The notes beneath the pieces are model-generated. The model was not told the DNA's origin and did not search any database. It saw only the letters and a program-made list of their open reading frames with translations. From assembly GCA_018056705.1 (NCBI GenBank), contig JAGPFE010000016.1:370-64369 (forward strand): a stretch of DNA of 64,000 bases. Reading direction: 5' to 3'. The stretch's first letter is position 1, and the number at the start of each line of letters is the position of its first letter. The position numbers were made by a program, and so were the translations under genes. The DNA is from Candidatus Hydrogenedentota bacterium (GTDB lineage Bacteria; Hydrogenedentota; Hydrogenedentia; Hydrogenedentales; CAITNO01). Shown in pieces: positions 52,122-63,211 of the stretch.

Positions 52122-52198
52122 GTGCCCATAGCTCAGTTGGATAGAGCGCTTGCCTCCGGAGCAAGAGGCCGCAGGTTCAAGTCCTGCTGGGCACGCCA
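52122..52198 (+). tRNA. tRNA-Arg (anticodon CCG)
   Basis: Cloverleaf folded by hand: acceptor GTGCCCA/TGGGCAC, anticodon loop CTCCGGA, T-loop TTCAAGT, 3' CCA encoded. TATAAT sits ~20 nt upstream. Confidence 0.9.
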
Positions 52199-52425: not shown

Positions 52426-54744
52426 ATGGAATACGGGTGGTTTGGTCGACGGTTGAGGGTAGCATTGTTTCTGGCGCTGGCAGGCGTACTGCTGGCGCAG
52501 GGTGTCGCCGGCGCGGACCGGATTCCGCGTATCATGTTCGTCGGGGACAGCTGGTGCGGGTTTATGTTCGGTTTCCGGTCCATCAAGAAGGCTTTGGATG
52601 ATCCGGAATTCGCGTCTGATGGCTTATCCCGCTGGATCGAAACTGGCGCCAGCACGGCGATCATGGGCGCGAAGGCGTACGAGTACCTCTGGCCCCAGCG
52701 TCGGCAGGACGTGATCGACGCGCTGCAGGCTTTACCCACGGTGGACATCGTGGTGATGACTCTGGGTGGTAATGACTTTTCCGGTAGTTTCCCGGTGACC
52801 TTTCCGGGGGGGTACGTACGGGAGGTGGACTGGTACGACTGGTACCGGGAAAACCACGATGGAGATCCCAACAACGACTGGCCGGAATCCATCCTGCACA
52901 ATCAGTTCAAGAATGACATGCGCCAGATTATCCAGTACATTCTGGGCGTCAGGCCGGACATCAAGATTGCCCTGTGCGGTTATGATTTCACCTGCCGCAG
53001 GGTCAACGATCGGTGCAACGGCCTGTTGACCATCCCCGAGCAGACTGGCGGGCTGGTACGTTTCGAACAGGTCAAGCGGGAACTGGCCGAGGAATTTCCC
53101 GGGCGGGTGATCTACGTGCAGACGGCCGGCCTGATGCAGCACCATTTTGGCTATTTCACCAGCAACGAATGGGGCACGGGAACCAGCGGTCCGTGGCCCG
53201 CGCCGCGATCCCTGAGCGAGGTGGACGTGCCGCCGGGTGTGGCGCCGTTGCCGGGAGATCACCGGAACGGTTACACCCCGTGGCCGGGTGGCGATCCCAA
53301 CTGGCAGGACCCCCGGGCCGCGTATATCGATGATGATATTCACCTCGTCGAGGAAGGGTACGACGTGTTCGCCAAGCACATCGTGCGGACCATCGTGCGG
53401 GAGTGGCTTAATTACCCGCGGGCGCTGTACATCCTGCCCCAGGCGCCGTCGGGAAACACGCAGCAGTTCCGGGTGATCTTTTCGCATCCGGTTACGGGCG
53501 TGGACGTGACGGATTTCAGCGCGACGGCGGCCAAGGCGGTTTCCGTGCAATCGGTGACACAGGGATCGACGGCGGAAGAATGGGTGGTTACGGTCGCCCT
53601 CAACGGGGCTCTCGAGGCCCAGTTACAGGTGGAAGACGACGACACGATCGTCCGGAGTGACGACAACACGCTTCCCCTGGGTGGGCCCGGCGTGGGGAAC
53701 GGGGTGTATGCCTACAACGGCGAGTGGACCTTCACGGATCTGCTGCGGCCCGCCGATGACGATTTCGTGGGATCGCTCGAATACCTCAACACGGTGATGG
53801 AGCCCTACATCAAGACCTTTGTTCCCGACATCAGTTTCGCGCCGGATCGCTTCGACGTGAACGGCAATTTCGTCATGGACGGTGGCAGCATGCAGGAGCC
53901 CTACAAGATTCCGGGCAACGCGGTGCTTGAGTCCTACGAGTTCGGGCTGATCCGGTACTGCCTGGATCATCCGACCATCGACCTGTCCGGACGGGGTGGC
54001 TTAAAGGCGGCCGACGTGGTGGCGGCGTGGCAGAACAATATCGTGAAGGCGCAGGCCTGCCTGGGTGGTCTGGGTAGCATTGCCGATTCCTTCCTGCCCG
54101 GGCTGGACACGCTGGTAGCGGGATATTACACGCTTGGAGATGGGGATTCCACGTTCTTCGCGACCACCCTTCTGACCCTGCTGGCAGCCATTGATAACTT
54201 CCCCGTGGGGGTTACGGCTCCCGATCCGGCGGATTTCATCGGTTTTCCAGACCTGCTGTCCCGGACCGCCGACGCGGACAAGGATGGCTGGACGAACGAA
54301 CAAGAATACGCCTATTTCTACCCGGATGGTATCGAGGCGTACGCGGCTGCCGCGCTGGATCCGTCCCGACAGCCCAGGCGCGGCGTGGGGATGTACGAAG
54401 AGGGGGAACACGTGCGCCTGGCCTTGCTGGACCACCCCGCGTATGACAGCACGTTCCAGTGGTACAGGGACGGCGTGGCCCTTGCGGCGAAGAGCATGAA
54501 TGCAGGCGTCAACGAGCGATGCCTGGACCTGTTCCCCGTGACGGAAGCCGACGCGGGCAGTTACACCTGCGTGTACCAGGTGGGACAGGGTGTGGGCGTG
54601 AACCGTGTGCTGGTGAACCGCACCTACGGGCCGATTCAGATCCGCGTGGGGGCGACCATCCCCGCGGCGTCCGGTCTTGGCCTCCTGGCGCTGGGCGGCG
54701 TGCTGGCGGCCGTTGCCACGCGCCGGGCTCGCGGGTCCCGCTGA
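52426..54744 (+). CDS. secreted SGNH/GDSL hydrolase-domain protein with Ig-like domain and IPTL/PEP-CTERM-like C-terminal sorting signal
   Basis: Signal peptide, FVGDSW (GDSx block I) and GGND (block III), Ig-like DAGSYTC motif. C-terminus IPAASGLGLLALGGVLAAVATRRAR (motif, TM helix, Arg cluster). AAGGAG RBS. Confidence 0.6.
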   Translation: MEYGWFGRRLRVALFLALAGVLLAQGVAGADRIPRIMFVGDSWCGFMFGFRSIKKALDDPEFASDGLSRWIETGASTAIMGAKAYEYLWPQRRQDVIDALQALPTVDIVVMTLGGNDFSGSFPVTFPGGYVREVDWYDWYRENHDGDPNNDWPESILHNQFKNDMRQIIQYILGVRPDIKIALCGYDFTCRRVNDRCNGLLTIPEQTGGLVRFEQVKRELAEEFPGRVIYVQTAGLMQHHFGYFTSNEWGTGTSGPWPAPRSLSEVDVPPGVAPLPGDHRNGYTPWPGGDPNWQDPRAAYIDDDIHLVEEGYDVFAKHIVRTIVREWLNYPRALYILPQAPSGNTQQFRVIFSHPVTGVDVTDFSATAAKAVSVQSVTQGSTAEEWVVTVALNGALEAQLQVEDDDTIVRSDDNTLPLGGPGVGNGVYAYNGEWTFTDLLRPADDDFVGSLEYLNTVMEPYIKTFVPDISFAPDRFDVNGNFVMDGGSMQEPYKIPGNAVLESYEFGLIRYCLDHPTIDLSGRGGLKAADVVAAWQNNIVKAQACLGGLGSIADSFLPGLDTLVAGYYTLGDGDSTFFATTLLTLLAAIDNFPVGVTAPDPADFIGFPDLLSRTADADKDGWTNEQEYAYFYPDGIEAYAAAALDPSRQPRRGVGMYEEGEHVRLALLDHPAYDSTFQWYRDGVALAAKSMNAGVNERCLDLFPVTEADAGSYTCVYQVGQGVGVNRVLVNRTYGPIQIRVGATIPAASGLGLLALGGVLAAVATRRARGSR

Positions 54745-54768: not shown

Positions 54769-54815
54769 GGCTCCCGCCTGTTTCGAAGCGATTCGAAGAG
54801 GCGGGAGCCTTTTTT
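54769..54815. terminator. bidirectional Rho-independent terminator
   Basis: 10-bp stem GGCTCCCGCC/GGCGGGAGCC flanked by T-runs on both strands, between convergent genes. Confidence 0.6.
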
Positions 54816-54890
54816 GTCACGTCATCAAAAAAAAACGCCCATGGAACGGGCTTCCATCGGCGGTTTATCACGGTCATCGTAACAGCAACG

Positions 54891-55421
54891 TCAGGCCTCG
54901 GGAGGAGCGCCCTTGAGTCGTTCGGGATCGATGCTCGCCTGCCGCATGGCCTGGGCTTCGATCTGCTGCATCCGGGCGATGAAAATCTGCTGCAGTTCGG
55001 CCACGGTATCATTCAGCAGGGTTGCTTCACCCGGAGTCAGGTTGCCTTTCATCTTTTCCCGCAGCATGAGCAGCATTTCGATCGTCAGCCGGGCCTGGTC
55101 CAGGTTAACGACCACCCGGTCGGCGCCCTGCGAAATCATGCCAAGGGCAAACATGGCCTGCGTGGCCAGACTCCCCATGAGCATCTCGAAATAGGGATCA
55201 ACGTTACCTTCCGGGGCATCGGGTGCCCCGGTTGGGGCCGTTCGCGCGTCCGCGGGAGTCCTTGCATTACCAACTCCCCCGGTCGTGGCCGCTGACCCGG
55301 ATGATCCCGGCGCGTCCCGACCAGCGTCCGCGGCCAGACGACGAGCCAGTTCCTCCTTTTCCCGTTGTGCCCGGGCTTTCCAGTCTTCGTCCACGAATAG
55401 ATTTGGTCCGCTGTCGGCCAT
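54891..55421 (-). CDS. DUF1844 domain-containing protein
   Basis: LMGSLATQAMFALG...VNLDQARLTIEMLLMLREKMKGNLTPGEATLL matches the DUF1844 core. GGAGG RBS. Confidence 0.6.
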   Translation of the reverse strand: MADSGPNLFVDEDWKARAQREKEELARRLAADAGRDAPGSSGSAATTGGVGNARTPADARTAPTGAPDAPEGNVDPYFEMLMGSLATQAMFALGMISQGADRVVVNLDQARLTIEMLLMLREKMKGNLTPGEATLLNDTVAELQQIFIARMQQIEAQAMRQASIDPERLKGAPPEA

Positions 55422-55501
55422 GGAAAGACCTCCGCGTCAAACCGGTCCCGTGGCCGCGGACGGGATACGCTCCCGCCCCGGCCACGGGTTACCGGAACGC
55501 G

Positions 55502-55591
55502 TTACTTGTTCTTGTGCCGATTCGCGCGCCTGCGTTTCTTCCGCTTGTGCTTATTGATCTTCGCCTTGCGGACTTTTCTTCCGCCTGCCAT
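55502..55591 (-). CDS. 29-aa highly basic peptide (possible bS22-like small ribosomal/RNA-binding protein)
   Basis: MAGGRKVRKAKINKHKRKKRRRANRHKNK. AGGAGG RBS 8 nt upstream of the ATG. Lies between ndk and the DUF1844 gene on the same strand; too short to appear in the ORF track. Confidence 0.4.
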   Translation of the reverse strand: MAGGRKVRKAKINKHKRKKRRRANRHKNK

Positions 55592-55666
55592 CTGTCACCT
55601 CCTGGACGCGACAGCGTCCCTTTACGGAACGGGTTACGTTTTCAGACCGGGTTCCGGCAACTGGCG

Positions 55667-56119
55667 CTAGCGCGATCCGTCATCCTCCGGTAACGCGTAG
55701 TCCAGCAGTTCTTCCGGTTTGAAATACAAAGCAATTTCCCGCGCGGCCGTTTCAGGCGAATCGGACGCGTGGATGATGTTGCGCTGCTTGCTCAGGCTGA
55801 AATCCCCGCGAATCGTTCCCGGGTCCGCCTGGGCACTGTCGGTGGCTCCATTCATGCGGCGTACCACCGACACGGCGTCCCGTCCTTCCCACACCATCTG
55901 GACCGTGGGACCGGACGTTATGAACGCCACGAGGTCTTCGAAAAACGGTTTACCCTGGTGTTCGGCGTAATGGGTTTCCGCCATCTCTCTCGTCAGGCGT
56001 TGGAATTTCAGGCCGACCAGTTTCAGTCCCCGCCGTTCAAAACGGCGGATACATTCACCAACCAGGCCCCGCCCAACGCCGTCGGGCTTCACCATGACAA
56101 ATGTGCGTTCCACAGTCAT
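55667..56119 (-). CDS. ndk: nucleoside diphosphate kinase
   Basis: [15 protein letters not shown] start, NIIHASD active-site His region. 150 aa. Confidence 0.9.
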
Positions 56120-56230
56120 AAGAAACGGAAATGCCCTCTTTACACCGTTCCAAGGTTACTCGAGGACCCCTAGTTTAGCAAAAAAAAGCGCGTTTCCGCA
56201 AGTTCCCAAAAAGGATGGGCTGAGGCTGAA

Positions 56231-57979
56231 TCAGGGACAATCCCTTTGCACCTCGACTTCTCGGGCTATCAGGGCGGGAATGTGAATCGAGCAGGAATCG
56301 GAGTTAAGGGGATTTCCGGTACATTCCAGCACGCGAGGAAAAAGGGTGGTGTCCGCGTCGATGAACGTGACGCCCGTGGCTAATGGGCCGAGGTCCGCGA
56401 CCTGGTTGTCGCTGATGTCAAGATGCCGAAGTTTATTCAGGCCGGACAGGGGAGAGACGTCTACAACCTGGTTCCCCGCCAGGTACAGGGCCTGGAGGTT
56501 GCGGGCCGCTTCCAATCCTTGCAATGACGTGATGCCCATGTTAGGAATGTCCAGGGATGCGATGTTCAGCATGTTCTGTCGCGTGACAGGCGTGGCAGGG
56601 TCGGTAATGTTGAACAAACCCCGGATGAAACTCGACAGTGTCGTGTCGGTAATGGTCACGGGATCATCGCATCCTCCTGTCGCCAGCGTGAAGAACACGG
56701 TGGAGCCGGGAAGCATTGACGTGCCCGACGCGGGGGTTTGTGTCGCCACGATATCCGGGGGGAAGATCGGACTGCAGGTGTAAGACATTACGGGAACCAG
56801 TCCGACAGACTGGAGGGCGCTTTCCGCGTCATTTCGCGTCATGCCGACGAGATGCGGAACGGGTACGGGGCATGGTCCGGTGGAAATTTCGAGGTCCACC
56901 ACGGCTCCTGGCATGACAACCGACCCGCCGATCGGGGACTGGTTGGCAACGCTGTCTGCGGCATGTACATTACTGCAGGCCGTCGTGACGGTTCCGACGG
57001 TCAAGCCTACATTCGCGAGGAGATCCCGGGCGGTTTGCTCTGAAAGATGGACCAGGTTTGGCACGACCACGGGACACGGACCCGCGCTCACGACCAGGTG
57101 AACCACCGATCCTTCCAGCACGTTGCTTCCGGCAATTGGATCCTGGGTGATGACGGCATCCACGGTAGTGTTATTGTCACACCGCGTGGAAATACTCGCG
57201 CCAAGGTTTAAACCCTGTAGCGTGAAAGTGGCAGTTCCCATGTCCACGTTTGACAGGTCGGGCACGGATACACAGGATCCCGCCGCAAAGTCAAAGTCGA
57301 CGGCGGTGCCCAGGGTAACCTGTGTTGCCGCCGCGGGGGACTGATGAATCACCGTGTCCAGGGGATCGGTGTTACTGCAGGCGGCGTTCGCGGTCCCAAC
57401 GGTAAGGCCAGCGGCGGTGATGGCGCTTTCGGCCTCGCCCCGGCTCATGCCCGAAAGGTTCGGCACCGCCGTGATCACGGGACAAGGCCCGGAGGACAAG
57501 GTAAAGTCCACGATGGAACCCGTGGTAACAGAGATGCCTGTACCGGGGTTTTGAGAAGCCACGGTGTCCGGTGCCGCGGTGTCACTGCAGGCGGTACTTA
57601 CCGATCCAACGACGAGGCCAGCGGCGGTGATGGCGCTTTCGGCCTCGCCCCGGCTCATGCCCGAAAGGTTCGGCACCGCCGTGATTACGGGACAAGGCCC
57701 GGAGGATATTTCCAGGTCGACCGCGGTCCCTTTTCGGACCCGGATTCCCCCCGCGGGCTGTTGCGTTATGACGCTTCCCGCGGGCACCGCGTCGTGACAG
57801 CGAAGGCTGATCTGGCCCACCTGTAAGCCCGCCCCGGTAATGGCGGTTTCGGCCTCGACCCGCGCAAGCCCCATGACATCGGGGGTTTTCGGCTTACAGC
57901 CCGTGGCGATCAGTACCAGCCCGGAAAGAACGACCCATCTACCCCGCCGCGTGGTCCAGAAACTCCCCATGAATTTCAT
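56231..57979 (-). CDS. lipoprotein with ~6 tandem PASTA domains and a C-terminal leucine-rich-repeat region
   Basis: Lipobox LIATGC. Repeated ~70-aa PASTA modules (VPNLSGMSRGEAESAITAAGLxVG...Q.P..G......V.L..S.GPCP). LRR segment LQALYLAGNQVVDVSPLSGLNKLRHLDISDNQV. Confidence 0.65.
   Translation of the reverse strand: MKFMGSFWTTRRGRWVVLSGLVLIATGCKPKTPDVMGLARVEAETAITGAGLQVGQISLRCHDAVPAGSVITQQPAGGIRVRKGTAVDLEISSGPCPVITAVPNLSGMSRGEAESAITAAGLVVGSVSTACSDTAAPDTVASQNPGTGISVTTGSIVDFTLSSGPCPVITAVPNLSGMSRGEAESAITAAGLTVGTANAACSNTDPLDTVIHQSPAAATQVTLGTAVDFDFAAGSCVSVPDLSNVDMGTATFTLQGLNLGASISTRCDNNTTVDAVITQDPIAGSNVLEGSVVHLVVSAGPCPVVVPNLVHLSEQTARDLLANVGLTVGTVTTACSNVHAADSVANQSPIGGSVVMPGAVVDLEISTGPCPVPVPHLVGMTRNDAESALQSVGLVPVMSYTCSPIFPPDIVATQTPASGTSMLPGSTVFFTLATGGCDDPVTITDTTLSSFIRGLFNITDPATPVTRQNMLNIASLDIPNMGITSLQGLEAARNLQALYLAGNQVVDVSPLSGLNKLRHLDISDNQVADLGPLATGVTFIDADTTLFPRVLECTGNPLNSDSCSIHIPALIAREVEVQRDCP
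57406..57715. repeat. 210-bp-period near-identical tandem duplication inside the PASTA-repeat gene
   Basis: A ~100-bp block (GGCCAGCGGCGGTGATGGCGCTTTCGGCCTCGCCCCGGCTCATGCCCGAAAGGTTCGGCACCGCCGTGAT[C/T]ACGGGACAAGGCCCGGAGGA) occurs at 57406-57505 and 57616-57715 with one mismatch. Confidence 0.65.
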
Positions 57980-58154: not shown

Positions 58155-58231
58155 GGGCGGTTAGCTCAGTTGGTCAGAGCGCCTGCCTTACACGCAGGAG
58201 GTCGCAGGTTCGAGCCCTGCACCGCCCACCA
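58155..58231 (+). tRNA. tRNA-Val (anticodon TAC)
   Basis: Acceptor GGGCGGT/ACCGCCC, anticodon loop CTTACAC, T-loop TTCGAGC, CCA encoded. Confidence 0.9.
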
Positions 58232-62766: not shown

Positions 62767-62842
62767 GCTGGCGTAGCTCAGTTGGCAGAGCAGCTGACTT
62801 GTAATCAGCAGGTCGGGGGTTCGATTCCCTTCGCCAGCTCCA
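62767..62842 (+). tRNA. tRNA-Thr (anticodon TGT)
   Basis: Acceptor GCTGGCG/CGCCAGC, anticodon loop CTTGTAA, T-loop TTCGATT, CCA encoded. Confidence 0.9.
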
Positions 62843-62894
62843 GCGGACGAACCAGTTGAAACATGAAGTCAATCCGCCAGGGCGGTTGGCGCGT

Positions 62895-62980
62895 GGTGGG
62901 ATGCCCGAGTGGCTAAAGGGGACGGGCTGTAAACCCGTTGGCTAGCGCCTACGTTGGTTCGAATCCAACTCCCACCACCA
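62895..62980 (+). tRNA. tRNA-Tyr (anticodon GTA)
   Basis: Acceptor GGTGGGA/TCCCACC, anticodon GTA, long variable arm (class II), CCA encoded. Confidence 0.9.
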
Positions 62981-63030
62981 TGCACATAGAACATAGCGCG
63001 TGGCGAGCGTGCGACGCGATTGCCCGCGAC

Positions 63031-63106
63031 GCGGGAGTAGCTCAGTTGGTAGAGCGTCAGCCTTCCAAGCTGAGGGTCGCGAGTTCGAGCCTCGTCTCCC
63101 GCTCCA
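63031..63106 (+). tRNA. tRNA-Gly (anticodon TCC)
   Basis: Acceptor GCGGGAG/CTCCCGC, anticodon loop CTTCCAA, CCA encoded. Confidence 0.9.
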
Positions 63107-63135
63107 TAACCGGATACCTCCCGTAAAGGGTTTGG

Positions 63136-63211
<76 letters not shown>

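What the first reader, a model, noticed from the sequence alone, without database searches (positions are those of the whole stretch)
55502..55591. Unlisted 29-codon gene for an Arg/Lys-rich peptide with a consensus RBS, between ndk and a DUF1844 gene
The minus-strand ORF MAGGRKVRKAKINKHKRKKRRRANRHKNK is preceded by AGGAGG at ideal spacing. It lies in an otherwise unexplained 245-bp gap inside a same-strand gene string. Composition and length resemble tiny basic ribosomal or RNA-binding proteins such as bS22 or bTHX-like peptides. It is too short to appear in the ORF track, and peptides of this kind are routinely missed by annotation.
Basis: partly seen in the sequence, partly recalled or inferred. 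Interest (0 to 1): 0.55.

Follow-up and report, generated by a model that had tools for sequence, protein, structure and literature searches.

The report
Unannotated ribosomal protein bS22 gene
The 29-codon reading frame is a real, strongly conserved gene for bS22, a tiny, very basic small-subunit ribosomal protein already known from other bacteria but so far called only "hypothetical" or missed entirely in this candidate phylum (Hydrogenedentota).

Summary
A 29-codon minus-strand ORF (55502-55591, MAGGRKVRKAKINKHKRKKRRRANRHKNK) lies in the 245-bp gap between ndk and a DUF1844 gene. AGGAGG sits 6 nt before the ATG. The window is from a Candidatus Hydrogenedentes MAG whose recorded gene calls skip this ORF.

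The peptide aligns full length, without gaps, to bS22 chains built into cryo-EM ribosomes: F. johnsoniae 7JIL (17/29 identical) and B. burgdorferi 8FMW (16/26). None of 200,000 composition-preserving shuffles reached either score. A profile of the Hydrogenedentota peptides gives E = 1.3e-5 and 2.4e-4 against these chains.

All nine related loci keep the order ndk, small ORF, DUF1844 and a Shine-Dalgarno sequence. DUF1844 identity falls to 38%, while the peptide stays 83-100% identical in the peptide set compared. Variable columns by codon position are 9/5/28, and dN/dS is about 0.06-0.11. The two closest relatives differ only by synonymous changes (6 and 11).

The inferred role is that of known bS22: binding the 16S rRNA pocket at h44/h45 near the decoding centre and bridging to the 50S subunit. 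It is not THX-like and not a chance ORF. This is a new member of a known kind, a useful annotation fix of modest interest. A conserved stable hairpin follows the stop codon.

The parts
55502..55591 (-). rpsV-like CDS for ribosomal protein bS22 (29 aa, stop codon included)
   Evidence: ORF and translation. Full-length hits to bS22 chains 8fmw_V and 7jil_5. Shuffle control 0/200000. Conservation with dN/dS about 0.06-0.11.
55598..55603 (-). Shine-Dalgarno sequence AGGAGG, 6 nt upstream of the ATG
   Evidence: Read directly. A GGAG-core SD lies 6-8 nt upstream of the start in all 10 loci, while the surrounding flanks are at background identity.
55433..55501 (-). Long GC-rich hairpin that starts 1 nt after the bS22 stop codon and ends 1 nt into the DUF1844 SD (GGAGG, 55429..55433). 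Probably an intercistronic 3'-end, stabiliser or attenuating structure.
   Evidence: Fold -56.6 kcal/mol, z = -5.4, 0/200 shuffles as stable. In close relatives 91.7% of cells are paired, against about 40% when the partners are slid, and 4 pairs change on both sides, but there are only 3 distinct sequences. Six of ten loci have a long hairpin at this position. No U-tract, and not flagged as an intrinsic terminator.
55667..56119 (-). ndk (nucleoside-diphosphate kinase), the conserved upstream neighbour on the same strand
   Evidence: PF00334 E 8.6e-57 and NF001908 E 2.1e-62. ndk lies directly upstream of the small ORF in all nine related loci.
54891..55421 (-). DUF1844 gene, the conserved downstream neighbour on the same strand
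   Evidence: PF08899 E 2.1e-16. It lies directly downstream of the small ORF in all Hydrogenedentota-type loci.
54828..54851 (-). Intrinsic-terminator-like hairpin plus T9 run after DUF1844. Likely the end of the ndk-bS22-DUF1844 transcription unit.
   Evidence: GCCCGTTCCATGGGC followed by GTTTTTTTTT; fold.

Best explanation
The ORF is a genuine protein-coding gene for small-subunit ribosomal protein bS22, of the F. johnsoniae/Borrelia sequence type and related to the PF08213 AURKAIP1/COX24/mS38 domain. It is translated from its own Shine-Dalgarno site and probably sits on an ndk-bS22-DUF1844 transcript that ends at the T-run terminator after DUF1844. By analogy with solved ribosomes, the Lys/Arg-rich helix would insert into the 16S rRNA pocket formed by h2/h27/h44/h45, just below the decoding centre, and its basic C-terminus would contact 23S H68/H70 as an extra intersubunit bridge. 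Shown here: the ORF, its RBS, its homology to structurally verified bS22, purifying selection on the peptide, and conserved synteny. Inferred, not shown: ribosome incorporation, the binding site, the operon structure, and any role of the downstream hairpin in setting relative expression of bS22 and DUF1844.
For: (1) Homology. phmmer against the PDB returns only bS22/mS38-type chains: 8fmw_V bS22 E 0.004, 7jil_5 bS22 E 0.004, mS38 8a22_BC E 0.015, 9i5v_10 E 0.65. The three bacterial chains align collinearly over essentially the whole peptide (8fmw_V residues 2-27); mS38 aligns over residues 7-26. A profile of 16 Hydrogenedentota peptides improves the two bS22 hits to 1.3e-5 and 2.4e-4. (2) Not a composition artefact. 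The ungapped full-length score against Fjo bS22 is 91 (17/29 identical), against a shuffle mean of 21.9 and maximum of 77, 0 of 200,000. Against Bbu it is 16/26, 0 of 200,000. (3) Purifying selection. Variable columns by codon position are 9/5/28, and synonymous versus non-synonymous codon differences are 321 versus 76. NG86 dN/dS is 0.06-0.11 with dS about 1 to saturated. The close relatives L085 and L087 have 6 and 11 nucleotide differences, all synonymous. ORF nucleotide identity is 0.71-0.81 while the flanks are at 0.48-0.59. (4) SD conserved in 10/10 loci. (5) The ndk-ORF-DUF1844 order is kept in all nine related loci, with DUF1844 identity as low as 38%. (6) A graded sequence series leads to peptides that pass the Pfam PF08213 cut-off (P0152, 66% identical to the window peptide, 26.1 bits). 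Mycobacterial bS22 scores 46.2 bits on the same model. (7) Literature. bS22 has been built into the density of M. smegmatis, C. acnes, F. johnsoniae, P. gingivalis and B. burgdorferi ribosomes. In the last three it was unannotated or 'hypothetical' beforehand, and the Borrelia paper predicted more such cases (PMC10618245, PMC7797042, PMC12123416).
Against: The window peptide itself scores only 14.6 bits on PF08213, below the gathering score of 23, and has no NCBIfam hit. Single-sequence E-values against the PDB are modest (0.004), as expected for 29 low-complexity residues. HMMER profiles built here did not reach mycobacterial bS22 directly. No ribosome, proteome or transcript data exist for this uncultivated lineage, so incorporation into the 30S subunit is inferred. 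The 16S rRNA is not in the window, so the binding pocket could not be inspected.
Confidence: 0.9

Rival explanations
1. It is a real, conserved, translated basic peptide, but not a ribosome constituent. One option is a leader or upstream cistron whose translation opens the hairpin that begins 1 nt after its stop codon, coupling DUF1844 translation to it. Another is a free nucleic-acid-binding peptide.
For: A very stable hairpin, conserved among close relatives, spans the whole spacer from the stop codon to the DUF1844 SD. The bS22-DUF1844 adjacency is conserved. Ribosome incorporation has not been shown.
Against: Regulatory leader peptides are not normally conserved residue by residue across saturated synonymous divergence. 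Here the amino-acid sequence stays 83-100% identical in the peptide set compared. The sequence matches proteins physically seen inside ribosomes. The hairpin sequence is not conserved in distant loci, and 3-4 of 10 loci lack a strong hairpin. A coupling role could also coexist with the peptide being bS22.
Confidence: 0.06
2. It is a chance ORF in the 3' UTR of ndk or in the intergenic spacer, with no coding function.
For: It is short (29 codons), no gene is called there in the record's gene table, and there are no Rfam or NCBIfam hits.
Against: The frame, length, start region and SD are conserved in nine loci. The ORF is far more conserved than its flanks, substitutions concentrate at third positions (9/5/28), and dN/dS is about 0.06-0.11. 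It is the only Lys-rich ORF of this kind in a 62.7% GC window. Other pipelines called the same 29-aa gene in L085 and L086.
Confidence: 0.01
3. It is a bTHX-like peptide or another small basic ribosomal protein (for example of the bL34/bL36 type) rather than bS22.
Against: Searches of all PDB chain sequences at E <= 10 return only bS22, mS38 and AURKAIP1/COX24 chains. No THX or other ribosomal protein appears. The only Pfam family touched is PF08213.
Confidence: 0.01

Closest known systems
bS22 of Flavobacterium johnsoniae (Fjoh_1533; PDB 7JIL chain 5) and Porphyromonas gingivalis (Bacteroidota)
   Same: Same length (29-30 aa) with a collinear, gap-free alignment; 17/29 identical to Fjo. Shared core K-x-x-x-HKRKK-x-x-x-NRHK. 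Those genes were also annotated only as 'hypothetical' before cryo-EM.
   Different: The N-terminus is MAGGRK rather than MPSGKK. The host lineage uses strong SD sequences, unlike Bacteroidia. The genomic context (ndk upstream, DUF1844 downstream) is shown here only for Hydrogenedentota-type loci.
bS22 of Borreliella burgdorferi (bb0822; PDB 8FMW chain V)
   Same: 16/26 identical, and the best profile hit (E 1.3e-5). That gene was unannotated and uses a non-ATG start. Two Hydrogenedentota-type homologues also start with TTG or GTG. It binds the h2/h27/h44/h45 pocket and contacts H68.
   Different: A different phylum and context. Borrelia bS22 is a candidate essential gene; nothing is known here.
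bS22 of Mycobacterium smegmatis/tuberculosis (MSMEG_0945 / Rv0550B; PDB 5O5J, 5O61), the founding member
   Same: A tiny, very basic 30S protein. Both touch Pfam PF08213: Msm 46.2 bits, window peptide 14.6 bits, intermediates 22-26 bits. The papers report that Fjo-type and Msm bS22 occupy the same pocket.
   Different: No direct HMMER hit between the Hydrogenedentota profile and Msm bS22. The mycobacterial protein is 33 aa with a different C-terminal half (…LLRRTRVQRRKLGK). Deleting it in M. smegmatis is tolerated and raises kanamycin sensitivity; this is untested here.
Mitochondrial mS38 (AURKAIP1 / Cox24) C-terminal domain, and cytosolic eL41
   Same: An mS38 chain (8a22_BC) is hit at E 0.015 over residues 7-26, and PF08213 is the only Pfam family matched. 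The papers describe the same pocket and a bent-helix fold.
   Different: mS38 proteins are much longer, with the basic helix only at the C-terminus. The similarity here is sub-threshold.
bTHX (Thermus 30S peptide)
   Same: A small, basic 30S peptide.
   Different: No detectable sequence similarity. From general knowledge, it binds a different site, at the top of the 30S head.

Membership tests
bS22 (bacterial small-subunit ribosomal protein, Fjo/Bbu sequence type) | A stand-alone peptide of about 28-33 aa, extremely basic (about 55-60% or more Lys+Arg) | tested here: met
   29 aa, 55% K+R and 62% K+R+H. For comparison, Bbu bS22 is 61% K+R.
bS22 (bacterial small-subunit ribosomal protein, Fjo/Bbu sequence type) | Full-length sequence similarity to a bS22 chain built into ribosome density, beyond what composition explains | tested here: met
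   Single sequence: 8fmw_V and 7jil_5, E 0.004. Profile: E 1.3e-5 and 2.4e-4. 0 of 200,000 shuffles reach the observed score.
bS22 (bacterial small-subunit ribosomal protein, Fjo/Bbu sequence type) | Conserved as a coding gene (purifying selection, translation signals) across the lineage | tested here: met
   Codon-position variability 9/5/28, dN/dS 0.06-0.11, SD in 10/10 loci, peptide 83-100% identical in the set compared.
bS22 (bacterial small-subunit ribosomal protein, Fjo/Bbu sequence type) | Physically present in the 30S subunit, in the h2/h27/h44/h45 pocket, contacting 23S H68/H70 | not testable with these tools
   Needs cryo-EM or mass spectrometry of ribosomes from an uncultivated phylum. 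The 16S rRNA is not in the window.
bS22 (bacterial small-subunit ribosomal protein, Fjo/Bbu sequence type) | Single (bent) alpha-helix fold | not tested
   The peptide is below the 30-aa minimum of the structure predictor. A prediction without rRNA would also say little.
Pfam PF08213 (COX24_C / DUF1713; AURKAIP1-COX24-mS38 domain, includes mycobacterial bS22) | Score at or above the Pfam gathering threshold (23 bits) | tested here: inconclusive
   Window peptide: 14.6 bits, E 0.031, the only family hit. 14/16 Hydrogenedentota peptides hit it below threshold. P0152, 66% identical to the window peptide, scores 26.1 bits and passes; Msm bS22 scores 46.2. The structurally proven Fjo and Bbu bS22 get no hit at all, so this criterion has a high false-negative rate for this subtype.
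bTHX | Sequence similarity to Thermus THX | tested here: not met
   No THX chain among PDB hits at E <= 10, with either the single sequence or the profile.
Regulatory leader peptide / attenuator uORF | Peptide sequence largely free to vary, with conservation residing in RNA structure or a few regulatory codons | tested here: not met
   The peptide is conserved at the amino-acid level while synonymous sites are saturated. The downstream hairpin sequence is not conserved in distant loci.

The most novel reading that the evidence does not exclude
The ndk-bS22-DUF1844 module, with a structured spacer between bS22 and DUF1844, may be kept by selection across Hydrogenedentota because DUF1844 works with bS22 or the ribosome. 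DUF1844 might be an assembly or escort factor for this extremely basic peptide, or a ribosome-associated factor, and the hairpin might set their expression ratio. That would give the first functional handle on DUF1844. A second, milder reading concerns the graded sequence series found here: Hydrogenedentota type, then M[AP]SVKKKRR type, then PF08213 and the mycobacterial type. It argues that bacterial bS22 and mitochondrial mS38 are one ancient homologous family rather than convergent, as one structural paper speculated.
Probability: 0.1. Interest if true: 0.5.

Novelty: new member of a known kind. Interest (0 to 1): 0.25.

Why it matters
The result adds a candidate phylum with no cultured representatives (Hydrogenedentota) to the lineages that encode bS22. 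Structure papers still describe bS22 as found in mycobacteria and Bacteroidia (with Borrelia added in 2023) and absent from many bacteria. It supports the published prediction that bS22 is under-annotated because it is short, low in complexity and sometimes uses non-ATG starts. It also exposes a concrete annotation gap. NCBIfam returned no match for the window peptide. Pfam PF08213 misses the structurally proven F. johnsoniae and Borrelia proteins, and scores this one below threshold. Because bS22 sits next to the aminoglycoside site on h44, its presence affects how ribosome composition and antibiotic susceptibility are inferred from genomes. The practical gain is a corrected annotation, plus a profile (alignments A3 and A4) that finds the gene cleanly in six-frame translations. 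The biology itself is expected rather than surprising.

Tried and rejected
The representative search, the structure predictor and the exact-contig look-up also need at least 30 aa, so I did not use them on the peptide. Padding it with a non-native residue was considered and rejected as uninformative: against 1.8 billion sequences a 20-28-bit hit could never be significant.
- Workaround: a 41-aa over-called homologue (P0128) was used as the query. It gave only 24 candidates, because the word index suits low-complexity peptides poorly, but it did yield the graded series.
- Rfam found nothing in 54800-56300 at E <= 1. The region is not a known RNA element.
- No sigma-70-like promoter was found in the ndk-ORF spacer or upstream of ndk. 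The promoter question stays open, and the consensus may not apply to this phylum.
- The ndk-ORF spacer fold is not significant (z = -1.7).
- The broader profile A4 is circular for the three PDB chains it contains, and it did not reach Msm bS22 or mS38.
- DUF1844 side-quest: no PDB sequence hit. The AlphaFold model has a confident three-helix C-terminal domain (mean pLDDT 70.7; residues ~76-161 at 80-93) but no significant Foldseek match in the PDB (best E 0.45, generic helical bundles). Its neighbours in Planctomycetota are variable: an FAD-binding oxidase, IGPS, SmpB, CTP synthase. Nothing therefore supports a ribosome link beyond the synteny in Hydrogenedentota.
- The THX hypothesis was rejected.

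Full report
**1. The observation**

Reading the minus strand and listing ORFs confirms an ORF at 55502..55591. It runs ATG…TAA and encodes MAGGRKVRKAKINKHKRKKRRRANRHKNK.
- AGGAGG lies at 55598..55603, 6 nt from the ATG.
- An in-frame TGA two codons upstream leaves no alternative start.
- The upstream gene (55667..56119, -) is ndk (PF00334, E 8.6e-57; NF001908, E 2.1e-62).
- The downstream gene (54891..55421, -) carries DUF1844 (PF08899, E 2.1e-16).
- The gap between them is exactly 245 nt.
- The window is 62.7% GC, and this is its only small ORF with at least 40% K+R and at least 15% K.

**2. Source and annotation status**

The DUF1844 protein is encoded identically on contig DAORZW010000038.1 of GCA_035360015.1, a Candidatus Hydrogenedentes MAG.
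- The gene table on record for that contig lists NDK and DUF1844 with nothing between them.
- The exact peptide is not in a collection of about 15 billion proteins.
- Near-identical peptides are present, in a cluster of 14. One is MDQ1257603.1, seen on 241 contigs. Those that carry a name are all called 'hypothetical protein'.

**3. What it is**

phmmer against all PDB chains returns four sequences, all of one kind:
- 8fmw_V, '30S ribosomal protein bS22' (B. burgdorferi), E 0.004
- 7jil_5, bS22 of F. johnsoniae, E 0.004
- 8a22_BC, mS38, E 0.015
- 9i5v_10, 'AURKAIP1/COX24 domain-containing protein', E 0.65

The three bacterial chains align over essentially the whole peptide without gaps (8fmw_V over residues 2-27); mS38 aligns over residues 7-26.

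Two Lys/Arg-rich peptides will always align to some degree, so I ran a control that keeps composition and fixes Met1:
- Against Fjo bS22 the ungapped full-length BLOSUM62 score is 91 (17/29 identical). The shuffle mean is 21.9, sd 10.7, maximum 77. None of 200,000 shuffles reached it.
- Against Bbu bS22 it is 16/26 identical, again 0 of 200,000.
- Against 9i5v_10 it is 15/29 identical, reached by 1 of 200,000.

A profile of 16 Hydrogenedentota peptides (A3) sharpens the hits to E 1.3e-5 (Bbu) and 2.4e-4 (Fjo). No THX chain or any other ribosomal protein appears at E <= 10.

**4. Relation to Pfam and to the founding member**

- The only Pfam family touched is PF08213 (COX24_C, formerly DUF1713), at 14.6 bits against a cut-off of 23.
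- NCBIfam has no hit.
- A search seeded with an over-called 41-aa homologue (P0128) returned a graded series: MAGGRK…, then MGSIKKRR… / MVSDKKRKR…, then M[AP]SVKKKRRAKIAKHKRKK….
- On PF08213, mycobacterial bS22 scores 46.2 bits. I recalled its sequence from memory and verified it as identical to chains in 5o5j, 5o61 and others.
- P0152, which is 66% identical to the window peptide, scores 26.1 bits and passes the cut-off. P0153 scores 22.1 bits.
- The structurally proven Fjo and Bbu bS22 get no hit at all.

Failing the Pfam cut-off is therefore not evidence against membership. The window peptide is in fact closer to the Pfam model than two proven bS22 proteins. My profiles did not reach mycobacterial bS22 directly. 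That link rests on Pfam and on the published structural superpositions.

**5. Conservation**

A DUF1844 alignment (A1) retrieved 80 loci from species-representative genomes.
- A 29-codon ORF of the same type lies just upstream of DUF1844, on the same strand, in all seven Hydrogenedentota-type loci (L005-L009, L011, L046). It is absent from the roughly 70 Planctomycetota loci.
- An HMM search of all stop-to-stop translations gave the same picture: 13 loci hit at E <= 1e-12 (L001-L003, L005-L009, L011, L046, L085-L087), then noise at E of about 8.
- ndk lies directly upstream in every one of the nine related loci.
- ndk is 62-87% identical and DUF1844 38-78% identical. Across the peptide set compared, the peptide is 83-100% identical to the window's.
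- Variable alignment columns by codon position are 9/5/28. Synonymous versus non-synonymous codon differences over all pairs are 321 versus 76.
- Nei-Gojobori dN/dS against the distant loci is 0.06-0.11, with dS from about 1 to saturated.
- ORF nucleotide identity is 0.71-0.81, while the flanks are at 0.48-0.59, which I take as background for this aligner.
- In closer relatives from metagenomes (L085/L086 and L087; DUF1844 78% and 72% identical) the peptide is identical, and all 6 and 11 nucleotide differences are synonymous.
- A GGAG-core Shine-Dalgarno sequence lies 6-8 nt upstream of the start in all ten loci. Starts are ATG in eight, TTG in L006 and GTG in L046.
- Other pipelines did call a 29-aa gene at this position in L085 and L086.

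**6. How it most likely works**

This part comes from the literature plus inference.
- bS22 was first seen in mycobacterial ribosomes. It was later found in C. acnes, F. johnsoniae (Fjoh_1533, 'hypothetical'), P. gingivalis ('hypothetical') and B. burgdorferi (unannotated, GUG start).
- It is a basic helix inserted between 16S h44 and h45, in a pocket formed with h2 and h27. Its C-terminus touches 23S H68/H70, adding an intersubunit bridge (PMC10618245, PMC7797042, PMC12123416).
- It occupies the position of mitochondrial mS38 and cytosolic eL41.
- In M. smegmatis the gene can be deleted without a growth or translation phenotype, but the mutant is more sensitive to kanamycin through a Lys16-h44 contact (PMC10081302).
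- In F. johnsoniae bS22 is lost from isolated 30S subunits but present in 70S complexes (PMC13000457).

I infer the same role here: an rRNA-embedded, charge-neutralising peptide near the decoding centre. This step has not been shown for Hydrogenedentota.

**7. Surroundings**

- Immediately after the stop codon, the 80-nt spacer folds into a long GC-rich hairpin (55433..55501): -56.6 kcal/mol, z = -5.4, with none of 200 shuffles as stable.
- Its 3' end overlaps the DUF1844 SD (GGAGG, 55429..55433) by one nucleotide.
- Among close relatives 91.7% of cells stay paired, against about 40% when the partners are slid. Four pairs change on both sides, for example GTGGCC/GGCCAC to GCGTCC/GGACGC. Only three distinct sequences are available.
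- Six of ten loci have a long hairpin at this position, but the sequence is not conserved at distance.
- It has no U-tract and is not flagged as an intrinsic terminator. A canonical terminator-like hairpin with a T9 run follows DUF1844 at about 54828..54851.
- My reading is inference only. ndk, bS22 and DUF1844 are co-transcribed, and the hairpin acts as a 3'-end stabiliser or partial stop that uncouples the abundant ribosomal protein from DUF1844.

**8. DUF1844**

This is the only unexplained partner in the locus.
- It has no relative in the PDB by sequence.
- Its C-terminal domain is modelled confidently as three helices but has no significant fold match.
- Its neighbours in Planctomycetota are variable.

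The bS22-DUF1844 linkage is thus specific to the Hydrogenedentota-type loci. It is weak evidence for a functional tie.

**9. Novelty and verdict**

- No paper in the searchable library mentions bS22 together with Hydrogenedentes or Hydrogenedentota.
- The protein family, its binding site and its tendency to be missed by annotation are all established, and the Borrelia paper predicted further cases.

Noticed in passing
window 55433..55501 (-): A very stable hairpin (-56.6 kcal/mol, z = -5.4) starts 1 nt after the bS22 stop codon and ends 1 nt into the DUF1844 Shine-Dalgarno sequence. Close relatives show compensatory changes, and six of ten loci have a hairpin at the same position. It has no U-tract. 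Its function is unknown (3'-end stabiliser, attenuator or translational coupling).
   Followed up: partly
window 55604..55619 (-): A small hairpin, GGACGC-TGTC-GCGTCC, abuts the bS22 SD. It is nearly invariant in the three closer relatives (alignment A2), but the fold of the whole spacer is not significant (z = -1.7).
   Followed up: partly
L006 2306..2395; L046 802..891: The bS22 homologues in these two loci start with TTG and GTG. This echoes the GUG start of Borrelia bS22 and helps explain why gene callers miss the family.
   Followed up: no
L009, L011, L046: These three MAG contigs are labelled 'uncultured Nitrospiraceae/Nitrospirales' but carry the Hydrogenedentota-type ndk-bS22-DUF1844 trio (ndk 64-75% identical to the window's). 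This suggests mislabelled or mis-binned contigs in the public records.
   Followed up: no
Pfam PF08213 / NCBIfam: The structurally proven F. johnsoniae and B. burgdorferi bS22 sequences get no PF08213 hit at E <= 1, and the window peptide has no NCBIfam hit. This bS22 subtype therefore lacks a working model in these annotation libraries.
   Followed up: partly
PDB chain 7jil_5 and entries 9oz9, 9ozn, 9ozz, 9p0e: The same 30-aa sequence carries two molecule names across entries, '30S ribosomal protein S22' and '50S ribosomal protein L38'. This is probably a depositor labelling inconsistency.
   Followed up: no
window 54891..55421 (-), DUF1844: The predicted structure has a disordered, low-confidence N-terminal half after a conserved [ILV][FI][IV]DEDWK motif, then a confident three-helix C-terminal domain. 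There is no PDB match by sequence or fold. Neighbours in Planctomycetota are variable.
   Followed up: partly
window 56231..57979 (-): A 582-aa protein has six PASTA repeats (E 6.5e-70) followed by leucine-rich repeats. Two PASTA units share a long near-identical stretch (CPVITAVPNLSGMSRGEAESAITAAGL appears twice). It lies on the same strand upstream of ndk.
   Followed up: no
window 52426..54744 (+): A 772-aa protein has weak GDSL-lipase and Ig-domain hits, all below the Pfam cut-offs, and a C-terminal hydrophobic stretch plus Arg-rich tail that resembles a sorting signal. It is convergent with DUF1844 and conserved next to it in close relatives.
   Followed up: no
window 62767..63211 (+); also 52122..52198 and 58155..58231: A tRNA cluster Thr(tgt)-Tyr(gta)-Gly(tcc)-Thr(ggt), from memory the arrangement that often precedes tuf in bacteria. 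There are also isolated tRNA-Arg(ccg) and tRNA-Val(tac) genes.
   Followed up: no
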